Source of the DNA: Flavobacteriales bacterium
GTDB taxonomy: Bacteria > Bacteroidota > Bacteroidia > Flavobacteriales_F > PHOS-HE28
Length of the DNA: 64,000 nt
Direction: 5' to 3'
Assembly: GCA_016713865.1 (NCBI GenBank)
Contig: JADJOG010000045.1
Location: forward strand, 34,898 to 98,897
Part shown: positions 38,901-58,792 of the stretch, piece after piece
Position numbering within the stretch: position 1 is the stretch's first letter
How the letters are laid out: every line of letters begins with the position of its first letter
Made by a program: the position numbers and the translations under genes
Notes under the pieces: generated by a model
What the model was told of the DNA's origin: nothing
Database searches by the model: none
What the model saw: only the letters and a program-made list of their open reading frames with translations

Positions 38901-39641
38901 ATGCTCGCCAGCGCGGTTGCTGCACCCGGCGTGGGTACATGGTCAATCGTAAGCGGCTCTGCAACCATCGCGCAGGACACCGATCCCTTCACTGTGATCA
39001 CCAACCTGGGCCTTGGGGCCAACGTGTTCCAATGGACCGTTGACAATGGCGCATGCGGCACCACCAGCGATCAGATCACGATCATGGTGTACGACCACAC
39101 CGTGCCTGCGGCGAATGCCGGTCCGAGCCAGCAGTTCTGCCAGGATGTGAGCACCACGACCCTCGGCGCAGTGCCCGCCACCAGCACCGCGAGCGGAAGC
39201 TGGAGCCTGTTGAGCGGCAGCGGCAACATTGAGCAGCCCGGCAACCCGAACAGCGCGGTCAACGGCCTTGCGCTTGGCTACAACGTGTTCCTGTGGACGC
39301 TGAACAACGGCGACTGCGGCACCACCACCGATACGATGACGGTGTATATCAAGGACTGCCTCACGATCAAGATCCCCGATGCCTTCTCACCCAACGGCGA
39401 TGGCACCAACGACGAGTTCGTGATCACCAACATCGAGAGCTATCCGAACAACACCTTCCAGGTATTCAACCGCTGGGGCAACAAGGTGTACGAGGCATCG
39501 CCTTACACCAACAAGTGGGACGGCACCAGCCAGTTCGGATCGGCATTCAAGGAAGGACTGCCGGAGAGCACCTACTACTACATCCTGGACCTCGGCAACG
39601 GCAGCGATGCCTACACCGGATTCATCTACCTGCGACGCTAA
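29906..39641 (+). CDS. giant cell-surface adhesin (SprB-like organisation) of ~3240 aa with about 32 tandem ~85-aa repeats and a C-terminal T9SS type B (gliding motility-associated) sorting domain, carrying 3 single-base frameshifts
   Basis: Signal peptide (IKPLIASLAALLLWQGEARA), a Cys-rich N-terminal domain, and repeats of consensus NAGPDQxLCxPxTSxTLAGN..FPAxGTWTLVSGxGTxxNPNSPTTxVTGLxVGxNVFxWTVxNGPC...TTDxVTIxVFD. The C-terminus is IPDAFSPNGDGTNDEFVI...VFNRWGNKVY...STYYYIL. Four ORF-track pieces (29864..35344, 35124..37103, 37100..38782, 38694..39641) are contiguous in homology, with 1-nt indels near 35128, about 37045 and about 38705. Confidence 0.75.
31120..39350 (+). repeat. in-frame tandem array of ~255-nt (about 85-aa) coding repeats inside the giant adhesin gene
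   Basis: The NAGPDQ / GTW(T/S)(L/V)VSG / NGPC landmarks recur at a period of about 255 nt. The copies differ at the nucleotide level by roughly 30-50%. Confidence 0.7.
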
Positions 39642-39684: not shown

Positions 39685-40620
39685 ATGAAGATGAGAACCG
39701 CCAAACGATGGATCGGCAGCGCGCTGGGGATGCTCCTGGGCACCGTGCTCCTGGCCCAGCAGGACCCGCAGTTCACCCAGTACATGTTCAACATGCTGGC
39801 GCTGAACCCGGCCTACGCTGGAAGCAGCGACCGCATCAGCTTGAAGGCGCTGAGCCGCCACCAATGGGTGGGCTTCGAGGGCGCGCCCACCACGCAGACG
39901 CTCACCATACACAGCCCGGTATTCAACGAGAGCTTCGCGCTGGGCGGCACCATCATGCGCGATGCGCACGGACCCATCACGCAATACACCTTCATGGTCG
40001 ATGCGGCCTATCGCATCTTCATGGGTGATCAGAAGCTCGCCTTCGGCCTCAAAGGCGGCCTCAACCTCTTCCAAGGGAAGTTCGCCGAGCTGAATCCGCA
40101 GACCGCGGGCGATCAAGTGTTCCAGCAGAACGTGAACTCGAAGCTCGATCCGCAATTCGGCTTCGGCATGATGTGGTACAGCGACCGCCACTATTTGGGC
40201 CTGAGCACTCCGAAGCTCCTGCGGACGGAATTCTTCAAGGAAGACTCCCTCGCCTTCGTGAGCTCGCCAGGGCAGCGCCCGCACTATTTCCTCACCGGCG
40301 GCTACGTGTTCGATCTCGGTCTCTACCACAAGTTCAAGCCCACCTTCCTCCTGAAAGCCGTGCAGGGCGCGCCCATGAGCTTCGACCTGAGCGCGAACGT
40401 GCTCTTCTATGAGAAGTTCTGGCTCGGCGCCATGTATCGTCACAAGGACAGCGTGGGCCTGATGGCGCAATACCACATCACCGACGATTTCACCGCGGGC
40501 TATGCCTACGACATCACGCTCTCGCCGCTGCGCAACTATAGCGGCGGCAGCCACGAGATCATGCTCGGGTATGAGTTCGGCAAGCGCGCCAAAGGAATCC
40601 GTTCACCACGCTACTTCTGA
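39685..40620 (+). CDS. PorP/SprF family type IX secretion system membrane protein
   Basis: The signal peptide then QQDPQFTQYMFNMLALNPAYAGS is the hallmark PorP/SprF N-terminus, and the ~310-aa beta-barrel size fits. It lies immediately 3' of the type-B CTD adhesin, as sprF does in the sprB operon. Confidence 0.8.
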   Translation: MKMRTAKRWIGSALGMLLGTVLLAQQDPQFTQYMFNMLALNPAYAGSSDRISLKALSRHQWVGFEGAPTTQTLTIHSPVFNESFALGGTIMRDAHGPITQYTFMVDAAYRIFMGDQKLAFGLKGGLNLFQGKFAELNPQTAGDQVFQQNVNSKLDPQFGFGMMWYSDRHYLGLSTPKLLRTEFFKEDSLAFVSSPGQRPHYFLTGGYVFDLGLYHKFKPTFLLKAVQGAPMSFDLSANVLFYEKFWLGAMYRHKDSVGLMAQYHITDDFTAGYAYDITLSPLRNYSGGSHEIMLGYEFGKRAKGIRSPRYF

Positions 40621-40622
40621 TC

Positions 40623-42800
40623 ATGAAGCAACGCATCCACATCCGGCTCGCCCTACTTGTACTGGCACTGGTGGCCGCACCAGCGCTGCGCGCGCAGAAG
40701 CTGCAGCAGCGCATGGCCGACCGTTACGCCGACGTTTTCGACTACAGCAGGGTGGCCGCCATATATGAGGACCTTGATGGCAAAGGCAAGAGCGACGCGG
40801 CCAGCCTGCGCCGTTTGGCTTTGGCTTACCGCAAGCTCGGCAACGCCCCCGCTGCTGAAGGCGCCTATCGCCGATTGATGATCACGCCCGGCCGCAATGC
40901 CGATGACATCCTCAACTTCGCTGATCAGCTGCGCGCCAATGGCAAGTACGGTGAAGCACTGGAGCAATATGCCATCTATGCGAAGGAGCGTCCGGACGAT
41001 ATGCGGGCACAAGGCTACCTGCGCAGTGAGAACCTCTTTTATAGGTTGAAGCGCGACAGCACCAGCGCTACCATCCGCCAACTCCCCATCAATAGCGCGG
41101 ATGCCGATCTGGGCGCTACCGTGATGGAGGAGCTGCTTGTCTTCAGCAGCGCGCGCGGCGATGGCGCCGGCGGCCGCCGCATGTACGCTTGGGACGATCA
41201 GCCCTTCCTGAACCTGCACACGGCGCTGCTGAAAGGGGAGACCGCTGAAGACCCGATCGTGATGCGCAATGATGTGAACAGCCGCTACCACGATGGCATC
41301 GCCAGCTTCGATTCACTGGCCAAGCGCATGTACTTCACCCGCAACCAGTATTACTACGGAGAGGTGAAGCGGAGCGAGCGCGGCGAGCTCAATCTGGGCA
41401 TCTACTTCACCGACGTTGTGAACGGCGAGTTCGGCCAGCTCGAATGGAGCAACCTCGTGCCCTTCGAGCATAACGATGAGAACTTCAGCACCGGTCATCC
41501 GCGCGTGAGCCCCGATGGCCGCCGACTCTATTTCGTGAGCGACCGTCCCGGCGGGATCGGCGGCACCGACATCTGGTTCTGCGACAACCTCGGCAACCAA
41601 TGGGGCGTGCCGCAGAATCTCGGCCCCAAGGTGAATACGCCGGGCGATGAGCTGCATCCGTACATCGCCGCGAACAACACGCTCTACTTCGCCAGCACGG
41701 GCCATCCGGGCCTCGGCGGTCTCGACCTCTTCTACACGCGCATCGGCGTGAACGGCCCGGGCAACGTGTTCAACATGGGCTATCCCATGAGCACGCGCTT
41801 CAATGATCACGGCCTACTGCTCATCAACGACAGCACGGGCTTCTTCAGCAGCGATCGAGCCGGCGGCCAAGGCAGCGACGACATCTATGGCTGCACCATC
41901 AGGCCGCCCATGATCCACCTCGCGGGCATCGTGATCGACAAGAACACACGCGAGCCCATCGAGGGCGCCACCATCCTGCTCAAGGATGAGAAGGGCCAGC
42001 ATGTGAAGCGCGCGCAGCTCGAGACCCTCGCTGGCGGCAAGTTCCGCATGGAGGCCGAGTACCACGAGAAGTACCTGCTGGTGGCCACGGCCAGCGGCTA
42101 CTACCAGACCGAGCTGGCGATCAGCACCAACGAGGATCCGCTGGAGGATATCGTGGTGGAAATGGTGAAGTACGACTATGCCGCCGAGGGCACCGTGTTC
42201 GACGGCGAGACGAATGCTCCGTTGGCCGGGGCCACCGTGGTGCTCACCGATGCCAAGGGCGAAGAAGTCGGCCGCGTGACCACCGATGCCACCGGCACTT
42301 ACCACTTCCCCTTGCTGAAGGACAGCGACTACAAATTGCAGGCGGAGAAGGATGGCTACTTCAAGCAGAGCGCTCGCATAACGACCAAGGGCAAGCCCAG
42401 CGCGATCATCGTGACGGATTTCCGCCTCTTCCCGCTGAAGGTGGATCAAGTGGTGCGCCTGGAGAACATCTTCTACGACTACAATAAGTCGAACATCAGG
42501 CCCGATGCAGCGGTGGAACTGGATAAGCTGGTTCAGACGCTCAACGACAACCCGACGGTTCGCATTGAGCTGAGCAGCCACACCGATTGCCGCGGCAAGG
42601 ACGCATACAACCTGAACCTCTCCGAGAAACGCGCGAAGAGCGCCGTGGAATACTTGATCAGCCAAGGCATCGCGAAGGGCCGCTTGGTGAGCAAGGGCTA
42701 CGGCGAGAGCAAGCCGAGCGAGACCTGCGTTTGCGAGAAGTGCAGCGAGGATCAGCACCAGAACAACCGTCGCACCGAGTTCAAGGTGCTGAGCAAATAG
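40623..42800 (+). CDS. PorE-like outer-membrane protein (TPR, TolB-like beta-propeller, carboxypeptidase-regulatory-like domain and OmpA_C domain)
   Basis: Signal peptide, TPR helices (AYRKLGNAPAAEGAYRRL), WD40/TolB-like repeats (DGRRLYFVSDRPGGIGGTDIWF, LYFASTGHPGLGGLDLFY), a carboxypeptidase-regulatory-like beta domain (AGIVIDKNTREPIEGATILL), and a C-terminal OmpA domain (ELSSHTDCRGKDAYNLNLSEKRAKSAVEYL...NRRTEFKVL). Confidence 0.75.
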   Translation: MKQRIHIRLALLVLALVAAPALRAQKLQQRMADRYADVFDYSRVAAIYEDLDGKGKSDAASLRRLALAYRKLGNAPAAEGAYRRLMITPGRNADDILNFADQLRANGKYGEALEQYAIYAKERPDDMRAQGYLRSENLFYRLKRDSTSATIRQLPINSADADLGATVMEELLVFSSARGDGAGGRRMYAWDDQPFLNLHTALLKGETAEDPIVMRNDVNSRYHDGIASFDSLAKRMYFTRNQYYYGEVKRSERGELNLGIYFTDVVNGEFGQLEWSNLVPFEHNDENFSTGHPRVSPDGRRLYFVSDRPGGIGGTDIWFCDNLGNQWGVPQNLGPKVNTPGDELHPYIAANNTLYFASTGHPGLGGLDLFYTRIGVNGPGNVFNMGYPMSTRFNDHGLLLINDSTGFFSSDRAGGQGSDDIYGCTIRPPMIHLAGIVIDKNTREPIEGATILLKDEKGQHVKRAQLETLAGGKFRMEAEYHEKYLLVATASGYYQTELAISTNEDPLEDIVVEMVKYDYAAEGTVFDGETNAPLAGATVVLTDAKGEEVGRVTTDATGTYHFPLLKDSDYKLQAEKDGYFKQSARITTKGKPSAIIVTDFRLFPLKVDQVVRLENIFYDYNKSNIRPDAAVELDKLVQTLNDNPTVRIELSSHTDCRGKDAYNLNLSEKRAKSAVEYLISQGIAKGRLVSKGYGESKPSETCVCEKCSEDQHQNNRRTEFKVLSK

Positions 42801-43951: not shown

Positions 43952-44131
43952 GGGCTGGTGGGGCAAGGTATAGGCGGTGCGCCTCCAGCCTTTGCATTGA
44001 TCACATCCGTTCGTGGTGCAGGGCGCCTCTTTATCGACCAAACATCGACTGCCCGGGTCAACGGTCCACACGACTCGGGGGCATTCGTGCATTCATCCGC
44101 GAACACGCATCTTTAGCCTTTCACATCATCC

Positions 44132-45383
44132 ATGATCGCGTCCCGGACTTTGCTGAGTGCCCGAGCATTCGTCCTTTTCGTGTTGCTGTGCGGCTCGGTC
44201 CCTTCGATGCACGCTCAGCCATACACCGTCAAGGCGGTTTACGATTCGCTCGACACGCGCCACGACTTGAAGCGGCCCTTGATCGAGCGTTACTTCATCA
44301 CAAGCAATCATCACTGGGCCTGTTTCAATCGGGGACTGATCGCTGAGGCGAGGATCACCTCCAAGGAAGAGCTTGAGCTGGCTGAGCAGCTCGGCATCGA
44401 TAGTCTGCTCGCGACCGCCTCGCACCATGTGGGCGATGCCTTCAACGGGTCGGCGGATGCGGCTTTGCAGTTGAAGTATTTCTATCAAGGCCTGGAGTAT
44501 GCGCAACGCTCCGGCATTCCGAACTATATCGGCACCGCGCAGAAGCAGATCGCCACCGTACGCCTATGCCCGTTCCTATTACATGTTGGGATCAGCATAC
44601 GCGGCGAAGCGCGAACGCCAGCTGGCCGATGTCCATTTCGCACGCGCGATCGAGGTGGCGGATTCCTTCCAGGTGATGATCCCGCTCTTTGGTTCCTTGT
44701 TGGGCCGGGGCCAGATGCAATTGGAGGCGGGCGACATCCCCGCTGCCATTGCTGACGGTAGGCGTGCCTTGCTCGTGAGCAGCAACGGGGGCAACCTCGA
44801 AGGCTTGGTGGGTGCATCAGACCTCTTGCGCCGATCCTTCAAGGCGCTTGGGGAAACCGACAGCGCGTACCACTACTTCGAGCTGCGCGTGATGTACGCC
44901 GACAGCCTGATCAACGCCACCAACCTGAACAAGCTGCAGAACATGGCTTTCGCGCAGGAGCTGAAAGAGCGCGAGGTGGCTAAGGCGAAAGAGGATGAAC
45001 AGGCGACCCGCTCCCGCAACATCCAGTTCGGGATCATCGCCCTCATTGTGATCACCCTCGGCATTTTCCTGCTCGTGCTCAGCCGCACCGCTATTGTAGG
45101 TGCGAGGACCATCAAGAACCTCTCGCTCATCGCGCTGCTGCTCTTCTTCGAGTTCATCAACCTGCTGGTGCATCCGTTCCTCGGCGAACTGACGCACCAC
45201 TCACCGCTGCTCCTGCTGTTGTGCATGGCGGCAATCGCCGGTTTGCTCATTCCGCTGCACCATCGCATGGAGCACTGGATCACCAACATGCTCGTGAGTA
45301 AGAACAACCGCGTGCGGTTGGAGGCGGCAAGGAGGACGATCGAGGAATTGGAATCGCGAACGGAAGAGCGCCCAACGAACTAG
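44132..45383 (+). pseudogene. paralog A of the TPR-like membrane protein family, with an internal deletion/frameshift
   Basis: The N-terminus resembles paralog E (YDSLDTRHD...), and the C-terminal TM module is intact. About 85 aa are missing relative to E, with a frame change near 44560-44600, so the track splits it into ORFs 44132..44755 and 44499..45383. Confidence 0.55.
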
Positions 45384-45386
45384 CGC

Positions 45387-46826
45387 ATGCAAGCCACAAG
45401 GGACCGAATGAAGTCACTGCGGATCGGGCTGGTCGCCGTCATGCTCGGCATGTTGCCGTCGGTGGGCCACGCTCAATTCGTTATCGCCCAATTGGACACG
45501 CTCGATGTGCGGCATGACAAGTCGCAGTCCATAGACGTCCGCCTCGAAGCAGCAAAGGACCACGCCATCGCTTGTTTGTACGCCGGGCGCGCCGAAGAAC
45601 TGCGGAGCACAGCACTGTTCATGCTGGATCTGGTGCCCGAAGCGAAGGAGGACTCGACGCTGGGCCAGACCTACCTGATGGTGAGCTACTCGTGCAAAGA
45701 GAGTGACCCCGGCAAGGGCCTGGAATACATGCACAAGGGGCTGGAGCATGCGGAGCGGAGCGCGATGCCCGGCCTGATCGGCTGGGTGGAGAAGGAGATC
45801 GGCGTCTTGTACAAACAGATGGGGCAGTTCCGCGAAGCGATCAACTGGATGAAGCGTGCAGAGGGGCATGTGAAGGGCTGGGTGGAAGTGAACCGCACGC
45901 ATTGCCATTTGAGCGAGGCGTATGCAGCCATCGGCCTGTTGGACTCTGCCATGTTCCATGCGCAGGCGTCCAACATCATTACCTCCGCGGCGATGGATCC
46001 ATACGGCTACGCCCGTTCGCAGCTGGTGCTGGGCAAAGCCTACACTGCCAAGAATGAGTTGGACATGGCCGAGCTCTTCTTCCGGAAGGCGATCGCCGTT
46101 TGCGATTCGTTCGGCGTGGTGCGGGTGATGCCTGTTGCGCTAGTGGGTGCGGCCCATGTGCGGCTTTCCGCCGGCGACCCTAACACTGCGGTCGGTCTTG
46201 GCCAGCGTGCCCTGGCTGTTGCCGAGCGCTCGGAGAACCTGCCCTCCTCCATCGAGGCCACTCACCTGTTGGAACGAGCCTATCACGCCGCAGGCAAGCC
46301 AGACAGCGCTTACCTCATCCTGAAACTGCATGCCACCTTGCAGGACAGCCTGGTGAGCGCCGAGAAGCTGAGCAAGGTGGAGAACATGCGCTTCGGCCAG
46401 CAGTTGAAAGCCAAGGAAGAGGAACAAGCGCGCATAGAGGCCGAGCAGGAACGCTCCCGCAACATCCAGTTCGGGATCATCGCGCTCATCGTCATTACGC
46501 TCGGCATCTTCCTGCTCATCTTCAGTCGCACGGCGGTTGTTGGCGCCAAGGCCATCAAGAACCTCTCGCTCATCGCGCTGCTGCTCTTCTTCGAGTTCAT
46601 CAACCTGTTGGTGCATCCGTTCCTTGGAGAACTTACACATCACTCGCCGATCCTCATGTTGCTGTGCATGGCCGCGATCGCCGGGCTGCTGATCCCGCTG
46701 CACCACCGCATGGAGAAGCTGATCACCAACATGCTTGTATCGAAGAACAACCGCGTGCGCTTGGAAGCGGCGCGGAAGACGATCGAGGAGTTGGAGGGAA
46801 GTCGCGGAGAAACGAACGCAAGCTGA
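45387..46826 (+). CDS. paralog B of the TPR-like triple-TM membrane protein family
   Basis: Signal peptide, TPR-like helical repeats, a coiled-coil (EKLSKVENMRFGQQLKAKEEEQARIEAE), then the conserved module RSRNIQFGIIALIVITLGIFLL..AIKNLSLIALLLFFEFINLLVHPFL..LLCMAAIAGLLIPLHHRME..NMLVSKNNRVRLEAARKTIEELE. Confidence 0.7.
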   Translation: MQATRDRMKSLRIGLVAVMLGMLPSVGHAQFVIAQLDTLDVRHDKSQSIDVRLEAAKDHAIACLYAGRAEELRSTALFMLDLVPEAKEDSTLGQTYLMVSYSCKESDPGKGLEYMHKGLEHAERSAMPGLIGWVEKEIGVLYKQMGQFREAINWMKRAEGHVKGWVEVNRTHCHLSEAYAAIGLLDSAMFHAQASNIITSAAMDPYGYARSQLVLGKAYTAKNELDMAELFFRKAIAVCDSFGVVRVMPVALVGAAHVRLSAGDPNTAVGLGQRALAVAERSENLPSSIEATHLLERAYHAAGKPDSAYLILKLHATLQDSLVSAEKLSKVENMRFGQQLKAKEEEQARIEAEQERSRNIQFGIIALIVITLGIFLLIFSRTAVVGAKAIKNLSLIALLLFFEFINLLVHPFLGELTHHSPILMLLCMAAIAGLLIPLHHRMEKLITNMLVSKNNRVRLEAARKTIEELEGSRGETNAS

Positions 46827-46831
46827 TCGCC

Positions 46832-48307
46832 ATGAATGCAAGGAAACTTCAGCAACGAACCGTATCCATGGTGTTCAGACCACTCGTTCTGCTAATCGGC
46901 ATCGGTTGTATAGGACAACTGCGCGCCCAACCGCTCGACACGCTCTTTGTCAGGCTGCGCGGCCTGCCGGTCGATTCACTGGAAGCACGCGAGCGGGCAG
47001 CGACCGACCCCCGGATGAAGATGGTTGCCATCAACAGGCTTACCGGTCAGTACGCTTTTCTCGGTCGCACGGAGGACTGCATGAAGGCAGCGATGCGCGG
47101 ACTTGAGTTGGCAGAAACGACCAAGAACGACACGCTGCTCGCCCTGGCCCACTTCGGTATCGGAGTGGCGTTCACCAGGCTCAGCGATGTGAACGGGGCG
47201 CTGAGGCACTTCAACATCGCCTTCGATGGCTACCAGCAGATCGGGGACAGCATGCGCATGAGCCTGACCTGCAAGGAGACCGCGATCGTGTACCAGCAGG
47301 TCGGGGATATCGATGGCACCTTGCGCTACATGCGGAAGGCACAGGCCTATGGCTTGGGTCAAGGGATCCACGGGCGTTCGATGACGATCCTGGCAAGGTG
47401 CCACATGGATCGCGGCGATCTGGACTCCGCGCTCTACTATGCCCGCCTGGCTGATGTCATGAAGGCGCCCGGCACGGATCCGTACGGCTACGCCGGCTAC
47501 AAGCTCATCATGGCTAATGTGCATGCTGCGCGTGGTGAGGGCGATGTGGCCGAACCCTACTACAAGAGAGCATTGGCGGTGGCGGATTCAGCTAGAACGC
47601 TGGATGCGCTGATAGGTGGTTCGGCCGGGTATGCGAAGCTGCTCATTGGCCAGGGGCGCGCTGCTGAGGCGCTTGACTGGGCGCGCAAGGGATTCTCGGC
47701 CACCGACGAAGTGCGGCTGCCAGTTCTCATGATCAAGTCCACCACGGCCTTGTCGGAAGCCTTTGCCGCGAATGGCATGACTGATAGCGCGCTGGTGTAT
47801 TCTCGGATCGCTCATGCCTGGCGCGATTCGCTCACGGCCTTGCAGAACAGGAGCCAGCTTCAGAACCAGTTGTTCACGCAGGAACTGAAGGACCGTGAGG
47901 ATGCGAAGGCCCGCGAGGAAGCCAAAGAAGAACGCTCCCGCAACATCCAGTTCGGCATCATTGCGCTCATCGTCATCACGCTCGGGATCTTCCTGTTGGT
48001 CTTCAGCCGCACAGCGGTGGTTGGAGCCAAGGCGATCAAAAACCTCTCGCTCATCGCGCTGCTGCTCTTCTTCGAGTTCATCAACCTGCTGGTGCATCCG
48101 TTCCTCGGTGAACTGACGCACCACTCACCGCTGCTTCTGCTGCTCTGCATGGCCGCCATCGCAGGCTTGCTTATTCCGCTCCATCACCGCATGGAGCACT
48201 GGATCACCAACATGCTCGTGAGCAAGAACAACCGGGTGCGGTTGGAAGCGGCGCGGAAGACGATAGAAGAACTGGAGGCGAGGCCAAATAACACCAATCC
48301 GAGCTGA
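46832..48307 (+). CDS. paralog C of the TPR-like triple-TM membrane protein family
   Basis: The ATG at 46832 gives MNARKLQQRTVSMVFRPLVLLIGIGCIGQLRAQP; the same architecture and the conserved C-terminal module. Confidence 0.7.
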   Translation: MNARKLQQRTVSMVFRPLVLLIGIGCIGQLRAQPLDTLFVRLRGLPVDSLEARERAATDPRMKMVAINRLTGQYAFLGRTEDCMKAAMRGLELAETTKNDTLLALAHFGIGVAFTRLSDVNGALRHFNIAFDGYQQIGDSMRMSLTCKETAIVYQQVGDIDGTLRYMRKAQAYGLGQGIHGRSMTILARCHMDRGDLDSALYYARLADVMKAPGTDPYGYAGYKLIMANVHAARGEGDVAEPYYKRALAVADSARTLDALIGGSAGYAKLLIGQGRAAEALDWARKGFSATDEVRLPVLMIKSTTALSEAFAANGMTDSALVYSRIAHAWRDSLTALQNRSQLQNQLFTQELKDREDAKAREEAKEERSRNIQFGIIALIVITLGIFLLVFSRTAVVGAKAIKNLSLIALLLFFEFINLLVHPFLGELTHHSPLLLLLCMAAIAGLLIPLHHRMEHWITNMLVSKNNRVRLEAARKTIEELEARPNNTNPS

Positions 48308-49785
48308 TGGGAATGATGAGGAGTACCCTTCAAGAACGATCGGTCAGGAGACTGTTCATGCTGTTCTGCGCGGTTGTCAACATGACCGCCATCGGGCGCT
48401 TGCATGCCCAGCCGTTCGATACGCTCGTCGCCCGGATCAGTGACCTTCCAGTGGACACCTTGATCATCCGCGAGAAGGCCACGGAAGATCCCCGCATGAA
48501 GGTCGCGTTGCTCGCACGGCTGGCCGTGAAACTCCTCTACGTCAATCGTCAGGATGAATGCATGTCCACCGCGCTCCGGATGTTCGAGATAGCGGGACCG
48601 ACCGGTAACGATACACTTATCGGAAGGGCGCAGCTATCCATCGGGTTCTCCTTCGTGATCGCCAATGAGGTGAACGGCGCATTGAAGCACTTCAACCTTG
48701 CGCTCGATCACTTTACGAGCGCGCGTGATAGCATCTGGATGGGTGCGACCTGCAAGGAGCTCGCCGTGCTCTATCAACGTGTGGGCGACAACGATGGTGC
48801 CATGCGCTACATGCGCAAAGCGCTGGCTTTTGGCATGCCCCCTGGGATACGTTCGCGAGGGCTGTCAACAATAGCCCGGGTCTTCATGGACCGAGGCGAA
48901 CTCGATTCCGCGCTCTACTACACCAAGCAAGTGGAAATGGTCAATACGCCCGGCGAGGACCCTTGGACCTACGCCTTTTCCAACGGTGCGCTTGCAGCGG
49001 TTTATGCCGCCCGGCATGAGGCCGATCTAGCCGAACTGCATTTCAAGCGCGCGATCGCCGCCGCGGATTCCTTCCAACTGCCGCTTCCCCTTGTTCAGTT
49101 CGCCGCGGGGTATTCTTCCTTGCTCTTGGAGCAGGGCCGCACAGCGGAGGCGCAAGCCATTGCGCAGTTGGGTTTCCGCTCTGCGAATGGGGTTCGCAAT
49201 CCGAACATCCTGGAGAAAGCCGCTGAAGCCTTGGCGGATGCGTTCAAGGCGGACGGCTTGGCCGATAGCGCATTCTACTACGCGAAGTTGTGCATCGCCT
49301 ACCGCGACAGTGTGATCGCCACACAGAACCGCAGTCAGCTGAAGACCCAGCTCTTCGCGCAGCAGCTCAAGGACATGGAGGATGCGAAGTTGCGAGCGGA
49401 GAAAGTTGCCGCCCGTTCCCGCAACATCCAGTTCGGCATCATCACGCTCATCGTCATCACGCTGGGGATCTTCCTGCTTGTGCTCAGCCGCACGGCTTTG
49501 GTAGGCGCTCGAGCCATCAAGAACCTCTCGCTCATCGCGCTGCTCTTGTTCTTCGAGTTCATCAATCTACTGGTGCATCCGTTCCTTGATCGCATCACCG
49601 ACCACTCACCGATCCTGACGCTGTTGTGTATGGCTGCCATCGCAGGTTTGCTGATCCCGCTGCACCACCGCATGGAGAAGCTGATAACCAACATGCTGGT
49701 GAGCAAGAACAACCGGGTAAGGTTGGAGGCGGCGAGAAGGACGATAGAGGAGTTGGAATCAACCAACGCAAAGTCAGAAGGATGA
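48307..49785 (+). CDS. paralog D of the TPR-like triple-TM membrane protein family
   Basis: Its start overlaps the paralog C stop (TGATG); the conserved C-terminal module is present. Confidence 0.7.
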   Translation: MGMMRSTLQERSVRRLFMLFCAVVNMTAIGRLHAQPFDTLVARISDLPVDTLIIREKATEDPRMKVALLARLAVKLLYVNRQDECMSTALRMFEIAGPTGNDTLIGRAQLSIGFSFVIANEVNGALKHFNLALDHFTSARDSIWMGATCKELAVLYQRVGDNDGAMRYMRKALAFGMPPGIRSRGLSTIARVFMDRGELDSALYYTKQVEMVNTPGEDPWTYAFSNGALAAVYAARHEADLAELHFKRAIAAADSFQLPLPLVQFAAGYSSLLLEQGRTAEAQAIAQLGFRSANGVRNPNILEKAAEALADAFKADGLADSAFYYAKLCIAYRDSVIATQNRSQLKTQLFAQQLKDMEDAKLRAEKVAARSRNIQFGIITLIVITLGIFLLVLSRTALVGARAIKNLSLIALLLFFEFINLLVHPFLDRITDHSPILTLLCMAAIAGLLIPLHHRMEKLITNMLVSKNNRVRLEAARRTIEELESTNAKSEG

Positions 49786-51215
49786 AGCTCTTTCAGATGA
49801 TCCGGGCTCTGATGCTCGTGCTCACTTTGTTGATACGAGGAGAAGTCGGTGCTCAGAAACTCGGCATCGAGTCACGATACGATTCTCTCGACACCCGGCA
49901 CGACATGTCACGCCCGATGCTCGAGCGATTCTGGATCACGGTGAACCATGCTTGGGCGTGTTACTACAGAGGTGAACGGACGGCCTCAACACGGGCTGGC
50001 ATGGATGCACTTGGATTGGCCGATTCCCTTGGCGTGGATACCCTGGGAGCTGAAGCGTATCTGGTCCTTGGCAATTCGACCGGTGGATCCGCCGACCCCG
50101 AGGTCGCGATGAAGCACTTTTACCGGGCACGCGCCCTTGCCGAGAAGGCAGGCAGCCGGGAGTATTCAGGTGTGGCGGACAAGGAGATCGGCGTTGTATA
50201 CAGGCTGATGGAGGACTATCCACGTAGTCTTGAGCTGCTGAAGAAGGCGATTGTGAACGTGCGCTCGATGCTGGAGGTGAACCGCACCTACTGTCAATTG
50301 AGCGACACCTATCGTTTCATGGGTCAGGCCGACTCGGCCCTGTACTACGCCCATCGATCGAACACCATCCGGGAGCCTGAGGAGGATCCCTATGGCTATG
50401 CGCGATCCTACTACACCTTGGGTGCGGCCTATGCGGCCAAGGGCGACCGCGTTCTTGCCGAGGTGCATTTCACGCGTGCGATCGAAGTGGCGGATTCCTT
50501 TGAAGTGGTGATACCGCTGATCCAAGCCCTCGGGGGGCGAGGGCGTATGCGCCTGGAGATCCAGGATCTCCCCGGAGCCATCACCGACGGGCGGCGGGCC
50601 CTGGCGGTTAGCCTTGCCTTCGGTCATTTAAGCTTGACGGCCAGGTCTGCTGATCTCTTGCGTGCGGCCTACAAGGCGCAGGGTCGCCTGGATAGTGCCT
50701 TTCATTACTCGGAGATGAAAGCGCTGTTCAACGACAGCCTGAAGACCACCGGGAACATGATCAAGCTTCAGAATATGACCTTCGAGCAGGACCTTAAAGA
50801 GCGGGAGGAGGCTAGGCTCCTGGAAGTAGCCGCCACAGAACGCTCCCGCAACCTCCAGTTCGGCATCATCGCCCTCATTGTGCTCACGCTGGGCATCTTC
50901 CTGTTGGTGTTCAGTCGCACAGCGGTGGTGGGAGCCAAGGCCATCAAGAACCTCTCGCTCATCGCGCTGTTGTTGTTCTTCGAGTTCATCAACCTGCTGG
51001 TGCATCCGTTCCTTGATCGCATCACCAACCACTCGCCGATCCTGATGCTGTTGTGTATGGCTACCATCGCAGGTTTGCTGATCCCGCTGCACCACCGCAT
51101 GGAGAAGCTGATCACCAACATGCTCGTGAGTAAGAACAACCGGGTAAGGTTGGAAGCGGCAAGAAGGACGATCGAGGAGTTGGAGGGAGCAGGAAAGACG
51201 GATCCTGTGGGTTAG
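49782..51215 (+). CDS. paralog E of the TPR-like triple-TM membrane protein family
   Basis: The ATG at 49782 overlaps the paralog D stop (ATGA). It begins MKLFQMIRALMLVLTLLIRGEVGAQ, and the conserved C-terminal module is present. Confidence 0.7.
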   Translation: MKLFQMIRALMLVLTLLIRGEVGAQKLGIESRYDSLDTRHDMSRPMLERFWITVNHAWACYYRGERTASTRAGMDALGLADSLGVDTLGAEAYLVLGNSTGGSADPEVAMKHFYRARALAEKAGSREYSGVADKEIGVVYRLMEDYPRSLELLKKAIVNVRSMLEVNRTYCQLSDTYRFMGQADSALYYAHRSNTIREPEEDPYGYARSYYTLGAAYAAKGDRVLAEVHFTRAIEVADSFEVVIPLIQALGGRGRMRLEIQDLPGAITDGRRALAVSLAFGHLSLTARSADLLRAAYKAQGRLDSAFHYSEMKALFNDSLKTTGNMIKLQNMTFEQDLKEREEARLLEVAATERSRNLQFGIIALIVLTLGIFLLVFSRTAVVGAKAIKNLSLIALLLFFEFINLLVHPFLDRITNHSPILMLLCMATIAGLLIPLHHRMEKLITNMLVSKNNRVRLEAARRTIEELEGAGKTDPVG

Positions 51216-51616
51216 GCCCGCTTCAGCTCCTTCATCGCCGCCTTGATGAAGCCTTCTTTGTCCATCTTCACCTCCTTCAGCATGGCCTTGCGGTCGGCGG
51301 GGATCGGGAAGTACTTCTCCGCCCAGAGGTTGATCTCGATCATGATGGGAAGCAGGTCCACACCCATCGGGGTCAGCTTGTACAGCACCTTGGCCTTGCT
51401 GTCCGGGTGGTCCAGTTTCTCTATCAGCCCGCTCTGCTCCAATAGCTGCAACCGTGCGGCGAGGATGTTGGTGGCGATACCCTCGGGCGCTTTCAGGAGT
51501 TCGCCGTAGGTGAGCTGCTTCGCGAGGAACAGGTCACGGATGATCAATAGGGACCACTTGTCCCCCCAGATGTCCAGGGAGCGGCTCACAGGGCAGTCGG
51601 AACGCAGGGTCTTCAT
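51212..51616 (-). CDS. HxlR family transcriptional regulator (winged helix, DUF24)
   Basis: CPVSRSLDIWGDKWSLLIIRDL...GELLKAPEGIATNILAARLQLLEQSGLIEK is the HxlR signature. It is divergent from an MDR quinone oxidoreductase, a common pairing. Confidence 0.8.
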   Translation of the reverse strand: MKTLRSDCPVSRSLDIWGDKWSLLIIRDLFLAKQLTYGELLKAPEGIATNILAARLQLLEQSGLIEKLDHPDSKAKVLYKLTPMGVDLLPIMIEINLWAEKYFPIPADRKAMLKEVKMDKEGFIKAAMKELKRA

Positions 51617-51726
51617 CGGCTCGAAGTATCGATGGCGAAGATAGTACTTGCAAAGAGCAAGTAAAGCAGTACGTTTGCGCTTGCAAAAGACAAGTGACAT
51701 TCCGACGAACCATCGAACAAGGAACC

Positions 51727-54477: not shown

Positions 54478-57400
54478 TTATGCTGCAACGTTCACCCCCA
54501 CAACGGATTCCATCGCCGCCTTCGCACCCTGAACGTTCTTCACATCCTGCACGCTGATCCGCAAAGTCCCCGCCTTCTCGTACACCTTGAAGCGTCGTGG
54601 TTGCGCTTGCACGGCGCGAAGTACTGCGTTGAAGCCATCGCCCTCGAAGAACGGGTGCTTTTGATCCGCGATGAAGGTGCCGATGAGCGTGCCCTTCTTC
54701 AGCACCATCTTCTCCAGGCCCATGCGTTGCCCCAGCCAGCGCAGGCGGATGCCTTCGAGCAGTTCGTTCACCAGCGGTGGGATCGGGCCGAATCGGTCGG
54801 TGACCTCCGTGGTGAACTTCTGCAGTTCCGCTTCGTCCTTGATGTCGTCCAGCCTGCGGTAGAGCGCAAGGCGTTCGGCGGTCTCGCTCACGTAGCTGTT
54901 GGGAATCAGCATGGTGAGATCGGTCTCGATGATGCAGTCGTCGCTCTGGTCGCGGCGTGATCCGCGGGCGAGTGCGTGGCTGCCTTCCTGGGCATCGTCG
55001 AAGAGGTCCTTAAAGTGCTGGTCCTTCAATTCGCGCACGGCCTCCTCCAGGATCTTGTGGTAGGTCTCGAAGCCGATGTCGTTGATGAAGCCGCTCTGCT
55101 CCGCGCCGAGCAGATCGCCCGCACCGCGGATGTCGAGGTCTTTCATCGCGATGTGGATGCCGCTGCCCAGGTCGCTGAACTGCTCGATGGCTTGCAGGCG
55201 TTTGCGGCTGAGGTCGGGGAGCAGGTGCGGGCTCGGCGCGAGCAGGTAGCAGTAGGCCTTTTTGTTGCTGCGCCCCACGCGACCGCGCAATTGGTGCAGA
55301 TCGCTCAGACCGAAGTTCTGTGCCTCGTTCACGATGATCGTGTTGGCGTTCGGGATGTCGAGGCCGTTCTCCACGATGGTGGTGCAGACGAGAATGTCGG
55401 TGTTGCCTTCGATGAAGTCCATCATCACTTCCTCCAACTTGTGGCCTTCCAGTTGACCATGACCAACGCCCACGCGAGAACCGGGTACGAGCTTCCGGAT
55501 CATGTCGGCGATGAACTCGATGTTCTTCACCTTGTCGTGCAGGAAGTACACCTGGCCGCCGCGTGAGAGTTCATACTCGATCGCACCGCGTATCGTCACT
55601 TCATCGTACGGCTGCAACATCGTGCTCACCGGATACCGGTTCGGCGGCGGCGTGCTGATAATGCTCAGGTCACGCGCGCCCATGAGGCTGAATTGCAAGG
55701 TGCGCGGAATCGGTGTGGCGGTCAGTGTCAGCGTGTCCACCGTCGCGCGCAACGTCTTCAATTTGTCCTTCACGTTCACGCCGAACTTCTGCTCTTCGTC
55801 GATGATCAGCAGGCCGAGGTCCTTGTACACAACATCCTTGCTCACCAAGCGGTGTGTGCCGATGAGGATATCGATCTTTCCTTCCTTCAGGTCCTTGAGG
55901 ATCTGCGTCTGCTGCGCGCTGCTGCGAAAACGGTTGATGTAGTCCACGCGCACGGGTAGCCCTTTCATGCGGGCCGAGAAGCTCTTCCAGTGCTGCAACG
56001 CGAGGATCGTGGTTGGCACGAGCACTGCTGCCTGCTTGCCATCGCACACCGCTTTGAACGCGGCACGTATCGCCACTTCCGTCTTTCCGAAACCGACATC
56101 GCCGCAGACCAGTCGATCCATCGGCGTGCTCTTCTCCATGTCGCGCTTCACGTCCTGCGTGGCCTTCAGCTGGTCGGGTGTGTCTTCGTAGATGAAGCTC
56201 GCCTCGAGTTCGTGCTGCAGGTAGTTGTCCGGCTGGAACGCGAAGCCCGGTTTGCTTTTGCGTTGCGCGTACAGCTTAATCAGGTCGAAGGCGAGCGCCT
56301 TCACCTTGGCCTTGGTCTTCTCCTTCAGGTTCTTCCACGCGGGCGTGCCGAGCTTGCTGATGTTCGGTGCCTTGCCGCTTTCCTCGCCGCTGTACTTGCT
56401 CACGCGGTGCAGACTGTGGATGCCCACGTATAGGATGTCGTTGTCGCGGTACTTCAGGCGGATGGCTTCTTGCATGGAGCCGCCCGCGTCGATGGTCTCC
56501 AATCCGCTGAAGACACCGATGCCATGGTCGATGTGTACCACCAGGTCGCCGGGCTTCAGTTGCGTGAGCTCCTTCAGCGTGAGCGCCTGCGAGTTCTTGC
56601 GGAAACCCTCTTTCAACCGATAGCGGTGGTAGCGCTCGAATATCTGGTGGTCGGTGTACAGTGCCAGCTTCAGCTCGGGGTCGATGAAGCCTTCGTGCAG
56701 ATCAAGAACAAGAGGCGTGAAGGCCACCTCATGCTCCATATCATTGAAGATCGTGTAGAGCCGTTCGCTCTGCTTCGCGCTGTTGCAGGCGATCAGGTTG
56801 GTGTAGCCCGCGTTCTGCTTGTTGTGCAGGTCGCCGCTGAGGACCTTGAACTCTTTGGCGAACGTTGGTTGCGGCCTCTGCTGGAAGTCAACGATTACAG
56901 AGGATTGCTGATTCGCTGATTCCTGATTCGCGCTGCGGAGGAAGACCTTGCGGAAGCCGAGTGTGCTCTTGATCGATTCCGTGTCGGTCGCAAGCAATTC
57001 GCTTGGCGTTGGATGTTTGTCCTTCTCCGAGAGCTTCTCATACACCTCGTTCAACAACTTCAACTGCTTCGTTGCTGCATCGCCGATGGCTTGCAGATCG
57101 CGCAGCCAGATCACCGCATCCTCCGGCAGTTGCGCGAAGAAGTTCTGTTGGCGCGCGGCATCCTCATCCTGCAGGTCAGGCACGATTACAGCTTCCGCAA
57201 GGAACTCCACGGTCAATTGGTCCTGCGGATCGAAGCGGCGCACGCTCTCCACGTTGTCGCCGAACAACTCGATGCGGTAGGGCTTGTCGCTGCCGTAACT
57301 GAACACGTCCACGATACCGCCGCGGATGCTGTACTGCCCCGGCTCGTACACGAACTCCACGCGGCTGAAGCCCGTTTCCTCCAACCACTCTTGCAGCGTG

Positions 57401-57891: not shown

Positions 57892-57931
57892 TGTGCCGGT
57901 GTGGTTATGCGTTGACAGCAAGGGCAAGTGT

Positions 57932-58792
57932 TTAATTGGCTGGAGGGGCGACCCAGTCCCATATCCCTCTCTTATGATTGAATGTCCAGTGCACAGCTTT
58001 TGTAAAGTTCTGGCTGGGGTTTGTGCAACGTATTTCCAACCCTCGGCCCAAGGCAAGTGCGTCCTGTCTTTTTGCTCTATCGTTCAAGCGACGCTGGTGC
58101 CGAAGCAACTCATTGTAGAAGAGAACGACTCGATGGAAGATCTCTTCCCACCAGGGATATCGTTCTTGAGTGTGGGGTGCGTGTCTCTTCGGGTCATAGT
58201 TCGTGAAGCCGATGCTGTTGTCTGTTATGTAGAACTGACTGTGAGCGACGGCATTACGCACTTGAGACCGATATATGCTCTTCAAGAGGTTGTAGTACTT
58301 GGGACATGTTGACTGAAGCGGGTCACGTATCTGAAGTCTGATTAGTTCTTGTCTAGAATCGTCGGGGCCAATTGTGTACTGCCAATTGAATGGCTGGCCT
58401 AAAGCAAGCTGGGTATAGTGGTAGAGCTTCTTCAGAATGCGATCTGCTTCCCAGAACCTCAGATAAACCATCATCTCGAACTGAATTGTCTGCCGAATTG
58501 CCTTTGCGACGTCGGGGTCCTTCTCCGCTTTATCGAATGTCTCCTTTCGCGACTCGTTTGCTAAGAAGGCCTTTCGATACATGTCGTAGAACTCGTATTG
58601 GGTGTGCTCTGCTTCATGATCCCAACCACCCAGTCCAGGGCCGAATCCGTTGTCGATTTCAGTGAATTGCCCGATTTCTGTCAACAAGAGATCCTGAGGG
58701 TGATCTAAGTTCCGATAGATGGTCTGAAACAGTTCGGCGACGGCCTCTTCCACCTCCGGTCGAAGCCTTTCGAGAATTTCTTCGAATAGCAT
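57932..58792 (-). CDS. hypothetical protein with a canonical HEPN-type R-N-x3-H motif (candidate defence/abortive-infection RNase), in a low-GC islet
   Basis: 286 aa at about 50% GC in a ~65% GC background. It carries the motif SQVRNAVAHSQFYI (R-N-x-x-x-H), is largely alpha-helical, and has no signal peptide. Confidence 0.45.
   Translation of the reverse strand: MLFEEILERLRPEVEEAVAELFQTIYRNLDHPQDLLLTEIGQFTEIDNGFGPGLGGWDHEAEHTQYEFYDMYRKAFLANESRKETFDKAEKDPDVAKAIRQTIQFEMMVYLRFWEADRILKKLYHYTQLALGQPFNWQYTIGPDDSRQELIRLQIRDPLQSTCPKYYNLLKSIYRSQVRNAVAHSQFYITDNSIGFTNYDPKRHAPHTQERYPWWEEIFHRVVLFYNELLRHQRRLNDRAKRQDALALGRGLEIRCTNPSQNFTKAVHWTFNHKRGIWDWVAPPAN

What the first reader, a model, noticed from the sequence alone, without database searches (positions are those of the whole stretch)
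44132..51215. Tandem array of five to six paralogous TPR-like, triple-TM membrane proteins with overlapping start/stop codons, a candidate uncharacterised sensory/signalling system
Six consecutive plus-strand genes of about 480-550 aa share one architecture. Each has a signal peptide, a ~330-aa periplasmic alpha-helical TPR-like domain that is divergent between copies, a charged coiled-coil (QLKxxEEAKxRxE), three transmembrane helices, and a ~40-aa cytoplasmic helix (NMLVSKNNRVRLEAARRTIEELE).

Stops and starts overlap (TGATG at 48305-48309, ATGA at 49782-49785), implying a translationally coupled operon. There is no kinase, GGDEF or other output domain, so how a signal would be transduced is not evident. 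The conserved His/Glu-containing TM3 segment (PLHHRME) may be functional. I could not place the family in any characterised group. The multiplicity and the pattern of divergent sensor domain on a constant membrane module resemble diversified receptor families.
Basis: partly seen in the sequence, partly recalled or inferred. Interest (0 to 1): 0.8.

Follow-up and report, generated by a model that had tools for sequence, protein, structure and literature searches.

The report
Kinase-less periplasmic TPR membrane protein array
Five back-to-back genes (one broken) in a Bacteroidota genome encode an unannotated family of inner-membrane proteins with a variable periplasmic TPR domain and a near-identical three-helix membrane module; they look like sensors without a known output, but their function is untested.

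Summary
There are five tandem genes, not six. Four are intact (477-492 aa). The first is a pseudogene with a 182-nt frameshifting internal deletion. Each intact protein has a signal peptide ending A|Q, a TPR superhelix, a charged stalk helix, three TM helices and a short cytoplasmic helix.

The C-terminal 115-residue module matches no Pfam, NCBIfam or PDB entry. The family is nevertheless large: 2133 clusters at 50% identity, found in high-GC Flavobacteriales MAGs and Chitinophagaceae. It almost always has the same architecture and often sits in tandem arrays of 1-7 genes.

No cytoplasmic output domain was found on any relative. No neighbouring gene is conserved across clades.

New result: the TPR domains form stable orthologous groups, while the module is homogenised within each array. 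A quartet test switches sharply at the module boundary, and module dN/dS is 0.05-0.15. The TPR region gives weak, far sub-threshold matches to the FimS sensor kinase model in all members tested. One variant carries a two-component-type beta-propeller and follows Hpt and response-regulator genes.

Best reading (about 0.4): a repertoire of kinase-less periplasmic receptors that share one constant transmission module. A non-signalling scaffold role remains a serious rival.

The parts
44132..45383 (+). g1: pseudogene of the family (orthogroup A-like). The N-terminal piece runs in frame from 44132. The C-terminal piece runs in the frame of ORF 44499-45383. An internal deletion of about 63 codons shifts the frame near 44556-44560.
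   Evidence: The two ORFs overlap in different frames. tblastn with the g2 N-domain matches residues 1-141 at 44132-44560 and residues 205-348 at 44556-45005. Sequence read. A public annotation calls only the last 235 aa: P0015, named IPJ85_15210 by its source, reads as identical to this ORF by eye.
45387..46826 (+). g2: intact gene, 479 aa, orthogroup C.
- Signal peptide: residues 1-29 (45387-45473).
- TPR superhelix: about residues 49-301 (45531-46289).
- Stalk helix: about residues 305-356.
- TM1: about 357-379. TM2: about 392-412. TM3: about 421-438.
- Cytoplasmic tail: 439-479.
   Evidence: ORF. Pfam TPR_12 at 1.2e-15. AF2 model with mean pLDDT 81.3 and its helix map. Foldseek matches to LGN/Pins and Rap TPR domains. 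Hydropathy and loop charges. Orthologues at 64-93% identity in many MAGs. Orthogroup label.
46832..48307 (+). g3: intact gene, 491 aa from ATG 46832 (MNARK...), orthogroup B. Signal peptide residues 1-32. The start lies 5 nt after the g2 stop.
   Evidence: The 547-aa ORF from GTG 46664 overlaps g2 and is not the likely start.
48307..49785 (+). g4: intact gene, 492 aa, orthogroup D. Signal peptide residues 1-34. The start codon overlaps the g3 stop (TGATG).
49782..51215 (+). g5: intact gene, 477 aa from ATG 49782 (MKLFQM...), orthogroup A. Signal peptide residues 1-23. The start overlaps the g4 stop (ATGA). The stop abuts the convergent HxlR-family gene at 51212-51700 (-).
45009..45353 (+). Constant module copy 1 (in pseudogene g1), 115 codons from RSRN to EELE.
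   Evidence: tblastn 1.4e-67, 91% identity to the g2 module.
46452..46796 (+). Constant module copy 2 (g2): pre-TM1 R-x-x-N-x-Q, TM1, TM2 with FEF-x-N-L and HP, a short periplasmic loop ending in the HSP motif at the start of TM3, TM3 ending P-L-H-H-R-x-E, then the basic/acidic tail helix.
   Evidence: Module-only AF2 model, pLDDT 84.6, three long helices.
47933..48277 (+). Constant module copy 3 (g3).
   Evidence: tblastn 7e-71, 96% identity.
49414..49758 (+). Constant module copy 4 (g4).
   Evidence: tblastn 2.7e-66, 90% identity.
50841..51185 (+). Constant module copy 5 (g5).
   Evidence: tblastn 4.3e-68, 92% identity.

Best explanation
The array encodes a repertoire of kinase-less transmembrane receptors, or co-sensors, of the inner membrane.

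**Proposed mechanism**
1. Each protein is exported by a cleaved Sec signal peptide.
2. A TPR superhelix of about 7-8 repeats sits in the periplasm. It differs between paralogues (orthogroups A-D) and probably binds a different peptide, protein or small ligand in each.
3. A single continuous helix runs from the last TPR repeat, through a charged stalk, into TM1. This couples the TPR domain rigidly to a constant module made of three TM helices and a cytoplasmic helix of about 30 residues.
4. The module is the common transmission element. It contacts a shared, unlinked partner, or the modules of the other paralogues. Candidate contact surfaces are the conserved polar residues in and at the edges of the membrane (E and N in TM2, H-P and H-S-P at the periplasmic face, H-H-R-x-E at the cytoplasmic face) and the invariant tail.

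**Shown:** the architecture, the fold class of the periplasmic domain, the strong constraint and concerted evolution of the module, the stable orthogroups, and the absence of any fused output domain.

**Inferred:** topology, ligand binding, signalling, and the existence of a partner.
For: 1. **Periplasmic TPR domain.**
   - All five copies have signal peptides ending A|Q. So do 194 of 215 relatives.
   - K+R counts are 3 in loop 1, 0 in loop 2 and 8 in the tail.
   - The AF2 TPR superhelix resembles the peptide-binding LGN/Pins and Rap receptor TPR domains.
2. **Weak likeness to a bona fide sensor.**
   - All 34 of 34 members tested hit the NCBIfam FimS sensor-kinase model, best E 1.2e-11. The scores (19-36 bits for the window proteins) are far below the 600-bit cut-off.
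   - In g2 and in the g1 remnant the best stretch runs colinearly over the last TPR, the stalk and TM1 (FimS positions 286-390). In g3-g5 it lies inside the TPR region, so much of the similarity may be generic TPR.
   - FimS has 8 periplasmic TPRs, and mutations in them change its output (PMC11053733).
3. **The module behaves like a constant signalling domain.**
   - Module dN/dS is 0.05-0.15 and dS 0.36-0.81. N-domain dS is 1.4-2.4.
   - A sliding quartet test gives 244-247 of 247 quartets for orthology upstream of the module. Inside it, 131-153 group by array against 47-65 for orthology, with the switch at the module start.
4. **Repertoire-like behaviour.** Arrays hold 1-7 copies, with partial and truncated copies (some at contig ends or in long-read assemblies). 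Recurring orthogroups appear in varying order.
5. **The module accepts another sensor type.** P0367 carries a Reg_prop beta-propeller, the sensor repeat of two-component proteins, plus about 3 visually TPR-like repeats ahead of the module (Pfam calls only Reg_prop there). It lies 13 nt after Hpt and Response_reg/GerE genes in two contigs.
6. **Fixed architecture.** This holds across the best 150 of 2133 clusters.
Against: - No output domain was found in any relative. Of 42 relatives of 569 aa or more, the best 41 carry the module (the 42nd is marginal, E 8.6e-4). Their extra length is N-terminal, or they are fusions of two tandem genes.
- The cytoplasmic part is only about 35-40 residues.
- No kinase, regulator or other gene is conserved next to the family across clades.
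- The Hpt/response-regulator linkage rests on one cluster in two closely related short contigs.
- The FimS, SusR and BT3442 hits are far below the curated cut-offs and may reflect generic TPR similarity.
- Concerted evolution would equally result if the modules pack against each other or dock onto a non-signalling machine.
- There are no expression, localisation or phenotype data for any member.
Confidence: 0.4

Rival explanations
1. Non-signalling periplasmic scaffolds or adaptors. The TPR domains would recruit different periplasmic client proteins. Known TPR adaptors and chaperones of this kind include NlpI/Prc, LbcA/CtpA, CcmI and PorW/SprE-type lipoproteins. The constant 3-TM module would merely dock all paralogues onto one conserved inner-membrane machine.
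For: - TPR domains are classic protein-protein interaction scaffolds, and the structural matches are to scaffold proteins such as LGN and APC subunits.
- There are weak NCBIfam hits to PorW/SprE, PilW, BatC and GltE.
- There is no output domain and no linked regulator.
- The concerted evolution of the module fits docking to one shared machine just as well.
Against: - A plain anchor or docking helix rarely needs 87-96% identity over 115 residues, including invariant intramembrane E/N/H residues and an invariant cytoplasmic helix.
- The FimS model is the NCBIfam model matched by the most members (34 of 34), ahead of any scaffold family.
- The Reg_prop variant sits in an Hpt/response-regulator operon.
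- No machine-encoding gene is conserved nearby.
Confidence: 0.3
2. The module is itself the effector. Homo- or hetero-oligomers of the 3-TM modules would form an ion-, proton- or metal-conducting or metal-binding bundle, with the periplasmic TPR domain gating its state. This would be a ligand-gated channel-like or energy-coupling device. Translational coupling would serve to co-produce the subunits.
For: - Polar residues lie at both membrane faces and mid-membrane: E and N in TM2, H-P and H-S-P on the periplasmic side, and H-H-R-x-E on the cytoplasmic side (nearly all invariant or nearly invariant).
- Start and stop codons overlap.
- Within-array homogenisation would keep the subunits compatible.
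Against: - Many genomes carry a single copy, and copy number varies from 1 to 7, so a fixed hetero-oligomer is unlikely.
- There is no sequence match to any transporter family.
- No oligomer model could be computed here.
Confidence: 0.12
3. Decaying remnants of TPR-type sensor histidine kinases that lost their kinase and no longer function.
For: There is weak sub-threshold similarity to the FimS model. Truncated copies and partial modules occur in arrays, including g1 here.
Against: - Four of the five copies are intact.
- The module is under strong purifying selection, dN/dS 0.05-0.15.
- Orthogroups are conserved across many genomes at 58-93% identity.
- The best 150 of 2133 clusters share one architecture.
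- TM2, TM3 and the tail are not kinase leftovers. They match nothing in kinases.
Confidence: 0.03

Closest known systems
FimS of Porphyromonas gingivalis and similar Bacteroidota sensor histidine kinases with a periplasmic TPR domain (NCBIfam NF053520)
   Same: - An N-terminal hydrophobic segment, about 8 periplasmic TPR repeats over about 330 aa, then a helix leading into a TM segment (PMC11053733).
- All 34 members tested give sub-threshold hits to this model. In g2 and the g1 remnant the best stretch runs colinearly over last TPR, stalk and TM1.
   Different: - There is no HisKA or HATPase domain. Two further TM helices and a 30-40 aa helix take its place.
- Scores are 19-36 bits for the window proteins against a cut-off of 600.
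- The N-terminus here looks like a cleaved signal peptide rather than a TM anchor.
SusR-family glycan-utilisation regulators of Bacteroides (NCBIfam NF058541)
   Same: From my own knowledge: membrane-spanning one-component sensors of Bacteroidota with an extracytoplasmic sensing part. Three of 34 members give weak hits.
   Different: SusR carries a cytoplasmic DNA-binding output. None is present here, and the hits are far below threshold.
RRNPP-type and LGN/Pins-type TPR superhelices (Rap, NprR, AimR; LGN)
   Same: Same fold class for the periplasmic domain. Foldseek E-values run from about 1e-8 to 1e-5, and the matched proteins bind extended peptides in the superhelix groove.
   Different: Those proteins are cytoplasmic and soluble. 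Identity is only 13-19%, so this is similarity of fold, not of family.
Methyl-accepting chemotaxis proteins and other receptor repertoires with variable sensor and constant signalling domains
   Same: The logic is the same: divergent periplasmic sensors on a highly conserved transmission part, with variable copy number.
   Different: There is no HAMP or MCP signal domain. The constant part here is almost entirely within the membrane. This is an analogy only.
Membrane- or lipid-anchored periplasmic TPR adaptors (NlpI, LbcA, CcmI, PorW/SprE, BatC)
   Same: A periplasmic TPR domain tethered to a membrane. There are weak hits to PorW/SprE and BatC models.
   Different: Those proteins use a lipid anchor or 1-2 plain TM helices. 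None has this conserved 3-TM module, and all hits are below threshold.

Membership tests
Pfam TPR clan (TPR_12, TPR_1, TPR_2, TPR_8) | Repeats scoring above the Pfam gathering threshold | tested here: met
   TPR_12 scores 57.9 bits (g2), 55.0 (g5) and 32.5 (g3) against a cut-off of 30.1. g4 scores 28.5, just below. The AF2 model shows stacked helix pairs, and Foldseek matches TPR superhelices.
FimS-type sensor histidine kinase (NF053520) | Periplasmic multi-TPR sensor between an N-terminal hydrophobic segment and a TM helix | tested here: met
   FimS architecture taken from PMC11053733.
FimS-type sensor histidine kinase (NF053520) | Cytoplasmic HisKA/HATPase_c kinase core, and a score above the 600-bit cut-off | tested here: not met
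   No kinase domain appears in Pfam or NCBIfam scans. The window proteins score 18.8-35.6 bits; best E among 34 members is 1.2e-11.
BT3442 family (NF053779) | Score above the 940-bit equivalog cut-off | tested here: not met
   41.7 bits, over the TPR region only. BT_3442 is described only as a TPR-containing multidomain protein (PMC2954219).
SusR family regulator (NF058541) | Cytoplasmic DNA-binding output domain and an above-threshold match | tested here: not met
   Three of 34 members hit weakly (best 4.6e-5). No HTH domain is found.
Any curated family for the C-terminal 3-TM module (Pfam-A, NCBIfam, PADLOC, PDB sequences, PDB folds) | A significant sequence or fold match to the module | tested here: not met
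   - Pfam gives only sub-threshold compositional hits. DUF2207_C hits 28 of 32 members, best E 0.0018, at about 14 bits (for the window module) against a cut-off of 33.
- NCBIfam gives none.
- PDB sequences: best E 0.19.
- PADLOC matches TPR models only.
Two-component or phosphorelay system | A kinase, receiver or Hpt domain in the protein or encoded in the same operon | tested here: inconclusive
   None occurs in the proteins or in the window array. None was seen next to the family gene in the other loci examined. In Flavihumibacter petaseus a hybrid kinase and a receiver-cyclase gene lie about 2-6 kb upstream, beyond a divergent gene. One divergent variant (P0367) directly follows Hpt and Response_reg/GerE genes in two contigs.
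Inner-membrane protein with N-out topology | A cleaved signal peptide and three TM helices, with the periplasmic domain demonstrated experimentally | not testable with these tools
   Only sequence features are available: A|Q sites, hydropathy and positive-inside charges. No SignalP, DeepTMHMM or reporter fusions could be run.

The most novel reading that the evidence does not exclude
This is a previously undescribed class of bacterial transmembrane receptor, confined so far to Bacteroidota. Interchangeable periplasmic sensors (TPR superhelix, or beta-propeller plus TPR) would signal through a self-contained 3-TM/short-helix module with no enzymatic output domain. The module would gate its own oligomeric state, or engage a yet unknown shared partner. 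Intra-array gene conversion would keep the module uniform within each genome.
Probability: 0.3. Interest if true: 0.7.

Novelty: new variant of a known kind. Interest (0 to 1): 0.45.

Why it matters
Bacteroidota dominate many gut, soil and wastewater communities, yet how they sense the periplasm is known for only a few systems (hybrid two-component systems, SusR-like regulators, ECF/anti-sigma pairs, FimS).

This family has more than 2000 sequence clusters. It has no annotation beyond 'TPR repeat protein' and carries a membrane module absent from the curated libraries searched here.

If the proteins are receptors, they define a signal-transmission route that needs no kinase, cyclase or DNA-binding domain. 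The tandem arrays would then be ligand-specificity repertoires.

The sharp boundary between orthologous sensor domains and a concertedly evolving constant module is also a clean bacterial example of mosaic evolution within a gene family. It gives a testable prediction: all paralogues in a genome must fit one common partner, or each other.

If the proteins turn out to be scaffolds, the finding is still a useful family definition, but an ordinary one.

Tried and rejected
- **Library scans of the module.** Pfam, NCBIfam and PADLOC scans of the window proteins (Pfam also on 32 diverse modules) found nothing above threshold.
- **Gene neighbourhood.**
  - I clustered ORFs from 74 related loci and inspected eight further loci with precomputed Pfam hits.
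  - The TonB-dependent receptor upstream (identified by eye, not scanned) and mfd downstream reflect clade-level synteny among the Flavobacteriales MAGs only.
  - The Chitinophagaceae neighbours are unrelated enzymes or unannotated: a SnoaL-like protein and an acyltransferase by Pfam; an aminopeptidase, an amidohydrolase and a serine hydrolase by eye.
  - No partner is conserved across clades.
- **Recent duplication or conversion as the sole cause of module identity.** Rejected. There are 22-38 synonymous codon differences per 115 codons. Conversion nevertheless operates on a longer timescale.
- **BT3442 lead.** The one paper describes it only as an uncharacterised TPR protein next to MACPF genes.
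- **Literature search on architecture terms.** Nothing relevant.
- **Promoter and terminator scan.** Nothing informative. The terminator-like hits on the minus strand are a palindrome created by the codons for NNRVRL.
- **bZIP-like or H-box-like reading of the tail and the HH motif.** Checked by eye; the spacing does not fit. Dropped.
- **Defence-system reading.** No support from PADLOC.

Full report
**1. What is in the window**

ORF listing and a tblastn search with the conserved C-terminal module show five plus-strand copies between 44132 and 51215, not six. No other clear copy was found in the 64-kb window; the only other hit was marginal (E 0.004).

- Four genes are intact:
  - g2: 45387-46826, 479 aa.
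  - g3: 46832-48307, 491 aa from the ATG that precedes its signal peptide.
  - g4: 48307-49785, 492 aa.
  - g5: 49782-51215, 477 aa.
- The 529- and 547-aa ORFs start at upstream GTG codons inside the preceding gene.
- g1 (44132-45383) is a pseudogene.
  - Its N-terminal 141 residues and its C-terminal ~275 residues lie in different frames.
  - The equivalent of residues ~142-204 is missing.
  - It is 1252 nt long, against 1434 nt for its closest paralogue g5.
- A public annotation of the same sequence calls only the last 235 aa. This is P0015, named IPJ85_15210 from a 'Flavobacteriales bacterium' MAG by its source; it reads as identical to the g1 ORF by eye.
The other two junctions are gaps of 3 and 5 nt.

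**2. Architecture**

- *Signal peptide.* Every copy starts with a basic n-region, a hydrophobic h-region and a small-x-A|Q site. Among 215 full-length relatives, 207 have the hydrophobic N-terminus. Of these, 194 have a small residue followed by Q at the expected distance. From my own knowledge, this is the pattern described for signal-peptidase-I substrates in Bacteroidota.
- *TPR domain.* Pfam finds only TPR families, in residues ~50-310. The AF2 model of g2 has mean pLDDT 81.3, with values mostly above 90 across much of the TPR domain. It shows about 15 stacked helices. Foldseek matches peptide-binding TPR superhelices (LGN/Pins, Rap receptors) at E from about 1e-8 to 1e-5.
- *Stalk and membrane part.* One continuous helix spans residues 305-382, covering the last repeat, an E/K/R-rich stalk and TM1. 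TM2, TM3 and a terminal helix follow. A module-only model has pLDDT 84.6 and three long helices, with TM3 and the tail forming one helix.
- *Topology.* K+R counts are 3 in the TM1-TM2 loop, 0 in the TM2-TM3 loop and 8 in the tail. This fits an N-out topology. The topology is inferred, not shown.

**3. Divergent sensor, constant module**

- N-terminal domains are 26-47% identical between paralogues.
- The 115-residue module differs at only 5-15 non-synonymous codons, but at 22-38 synonymous codons.
- NG86 estimates for the module are dN 0.03-0.09, dS 0.36-0.81 and dN/dS 0.05-0.15. N-domain dS is 1.4-2.4.
- The module is therefore under strong purifying selection and is not a very recent copy. 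It is still several-fold less diverged at silent sites than the rest of the gene.

**4. The family elsewhere**

- A profile of the module, searched against 1.84 billion representative proteins, finds 2133 clusters at E<=1e-3 and 527 at E<=1e-30. Most of the best 150 are 440-500 aa; the rest are shorter, apparently partial, or up to 595 aa. In nearly all the module sits at the C-terminus.
- In species-representative genomes, 287 stretches were confirmed. The best 74 loci are high-GC 'Flavobacteriales bacterium' MAGs and Chitinophagaceae (Ferruginibacter, Sediminibacterium, Segetibacter, Lacibacter). A few carry broader or doubtful bin labels. One contig is labelled Bordetella and is presumably mis-binned.
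- Cultured hosts include Flavihumibacter petaseus and F. solisilvae.
- Source annotations read only 'hypothetical protein' or 'tetratricopeptide repeat protein'.
- Tandem arrays are common. They hold 1-7 copies spaced about 1.37-1.57 kb apart, and partial or truncated copies occur often.
- Family-wide conserved features are:
  - R-x-x-N-x-Q before TM1.
  - S-[RH] after TM1.
  - F-E-F-x-N-L ... H-P in TM2.
  - H-S-P at the start of TM3.
  - P-x-H-H-x-x-E at the end of TM3.
  - K-N-x-x-x-R-L-x-x-A-[KR]-x-x-I-x-x-L-E in the tail.

**5. Mosaic evolution (new result)**

- In the Flavobacteriales clade, the N-domains fall into recurrent orthogroups A-D (>=58% identity across genomes).
- The window reads [pseudo-A] C B D A. 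Other genomes read A C B D H, C B D, C A B D, C D B A A and so on.
- Module nucleotide identity carries no orthogroup signal:
  - same orthogroup, different locus: 0.828;
  - different orthogroup, different locus: 0.831;
  - different orthogroup, same array: 0.882.
- A quartet test used two genomes and two orthogroups per quartet, 247 quartets from 34 loci. Over the whole module, 168 quartets group by array, 50 by orthology and 20 cross.
- Slid along the gene in 40-codon windows:
  - every window from -160 to 0 codons gives 244-247 of 247 for orthology;
  - the window -20..+20 gives 202 orthology and 28 by array;
  - all windows inside the module give 131-153 by array and 47-65 orthology.
- The switch sits at the stalk/TM1 boundary. 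Together with the lower module dS, this indicates recurrent intra-array gene conversion confined to the module.
- Caveat: genome-specific codon bias could contribute to the within-array signal. It cannot explain the sharp boundary.

**6. Search for an output or a partner**

- No kinase, cyclase, HTH or other domain is present.
- To reach long relatives, I queried the 5.8-billion-protein collection with nine concatenated diverse modules. Only 42 proteins of 569 aa or more matched; the last was marginal (E 8.6e-4).
  - Nearly all are 569-624 aa with longer TPR N-termini.
  - Two (906 and 943 aa) score double and appear to be fusions of two tandem genes.
  - One, P0367 (624 aa), has a signal peptide, a Reg_prop beta-propeller (2.7e-11), about three TPR-like repeats judged by eye, and then the stalk and module.
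  - None has a cytoplasmic extension.
- P0367 lies 13 nt downstream of a Response_reg/GerE regulator gene, which follows an Hpt gene. This arrangement occurs in two contigs. No other locus shows it.
- Neighbourhoods of the ordinary members are heterogeneous.
  - In the Flavobacteriales MAGs the array usually lies between a TonB-receptor cluster and mfd. This is clade-level synteny.
  - In this window, mfd is at 54478-58056 on the minus strand. The upstream genes are a divergent radical-SAM/SPASM gene and a T9SS cargo/PorP/OmpA cluster.
- The module matches nothing curated.

**7. Link to known sensors**

- All 34 of 34 aligned members give sub-threshold hits to the NCBIfam model of the P. gingivalis kinase FimS, best E 1.2e-11.
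- In g2 and in the g1 remnant the best stretch covers last TPR, stalk and TM1 against FimS positions 286-390. In g3-g5 it lies inside the TPR region.
- FimS has eight periplasmic TPRs between two TM segments. Single substitutions in those TPRs abolish or raise its output (PMC11053733).
- The periplasmic half of the present family is therefore laid out like the sensor half of a proven sensor kinase, and may be distantly related to it. The kinase-defining half is absent, so the family is not a member (membership test: not met).

**8. Interpretation**

- *Best reading (confidence about 0.4).* These are kinase-less periplasmic receptors or co-sensors. The constant 3-TM/tail module is the shared transmission element. 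Conversion plus purifying selection keeps it uniform, because every paralogue must fit the same partner or the other paralogues.
- *Main rival (about 0.3).* They are a non-signalling scaffold or adaptor family docked on a common membrane machine.
- *Lesser rival (about 0.12).* The oligomerised module is itself an ion- or metal-handling effector.
- *Decayed kinase remnants.* Contradicted by the selection data.
- *Overall.* The finding is a genuine, unannotated and fairly widespread family with an unusual evolutionary signature. Its function remains open, so interest is moderate (0.45), not high.

Noticed in passing
window 29864-39641 (+): Four consecutive, partly overlapping ORFs lie in alternating frames: 29864-35344, 35124-37103, 37100-38782 and 38694-39641. 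All carry K319L-like PKD domains. Only the last has a CHU_C type IX secretion signal. This looks like either one giant (>3000 aa) T9SS adhesin broken by frameshifts (assembly errors or decay) or a set of stacked genes.
   Followed up: no
window 39685-42800 (+): A PorP/SprF gene is followed 2 nt later by an OmpA-family gene with PD40 and CarboxypepD_reg domains. Both sit directly after the PKD/CHU_C cargo, forming a cargo-plus-PorP/SprF cluster. This cluster is not linked to the TPR array in the related genomes examined, where other genes lie upstream.
   Followed up: partly
window 45305-45320, 48229-48244, 49710-49725, 51137-51152: The codons for N-N-R-V-R-L in the module tail form a perfect 6-bp-arm (5-bp in two copies) palindrome (CAACCG....CGGTTG). 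The terminator scan flags it on the minus strand in four of the five copies. It is probably a by-product of the conserved peptide, but it is a conserved hairpin inside the conversion tract.
   Followed up: no
L048, L051, L056, L063-L066, L070 (Chitinophagaceae loci): A second unannotated family (cluster c10) has about 250 aa, an N-terminal TM helix and no Pfam match. It also forms tandem arrays of 2-3 genes close to the TPR-module genes in eight loci.
   Followed up: partly
L079 468-3401 and L080 792-3725: An operon-like run of an Hpt-domain protein, a Response_reg/GerE regulator and a Reg_prop-TPR-module protein (P0367), with no histidine kinase visible on these short contigs.
   Followed up: partly
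P0329 (943 aa) and P0330 (906 aa): These are proteins with double module scores. P0329 has TPR blocks in both halves and TM-type hits in the middle, so two adjacent family genes appear fused into one ORF. The cause could be real read-through fusion or frameshift errors.
   Followed up: no
L068: A 5-kb contig carrying a typical Chitinophagaceae-type family member is deposited in a MAG labelled Bordetella parapertussis. This is most likely a binning error.
   Followed up: no
window 44126-51139, minus strand: Long antisense ORFs of 120-230 aa overlap the array, and some are 'conserved' across loci (clusters c6, c9). They are mirror images of the conserved coding strand in high-GC DNA, not genes. 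They misled a simple longest-ORF gene caller.
   Followed up: yes
L075, L077, L083: A PAD_porph (agmatine deiminase-like) gene lies within 0.1-4 kb of the family gene in three Chitinophagales loci, with a CN_hydrolase gene beside it in two of them. This may be plain synteny.
   Followed up: no
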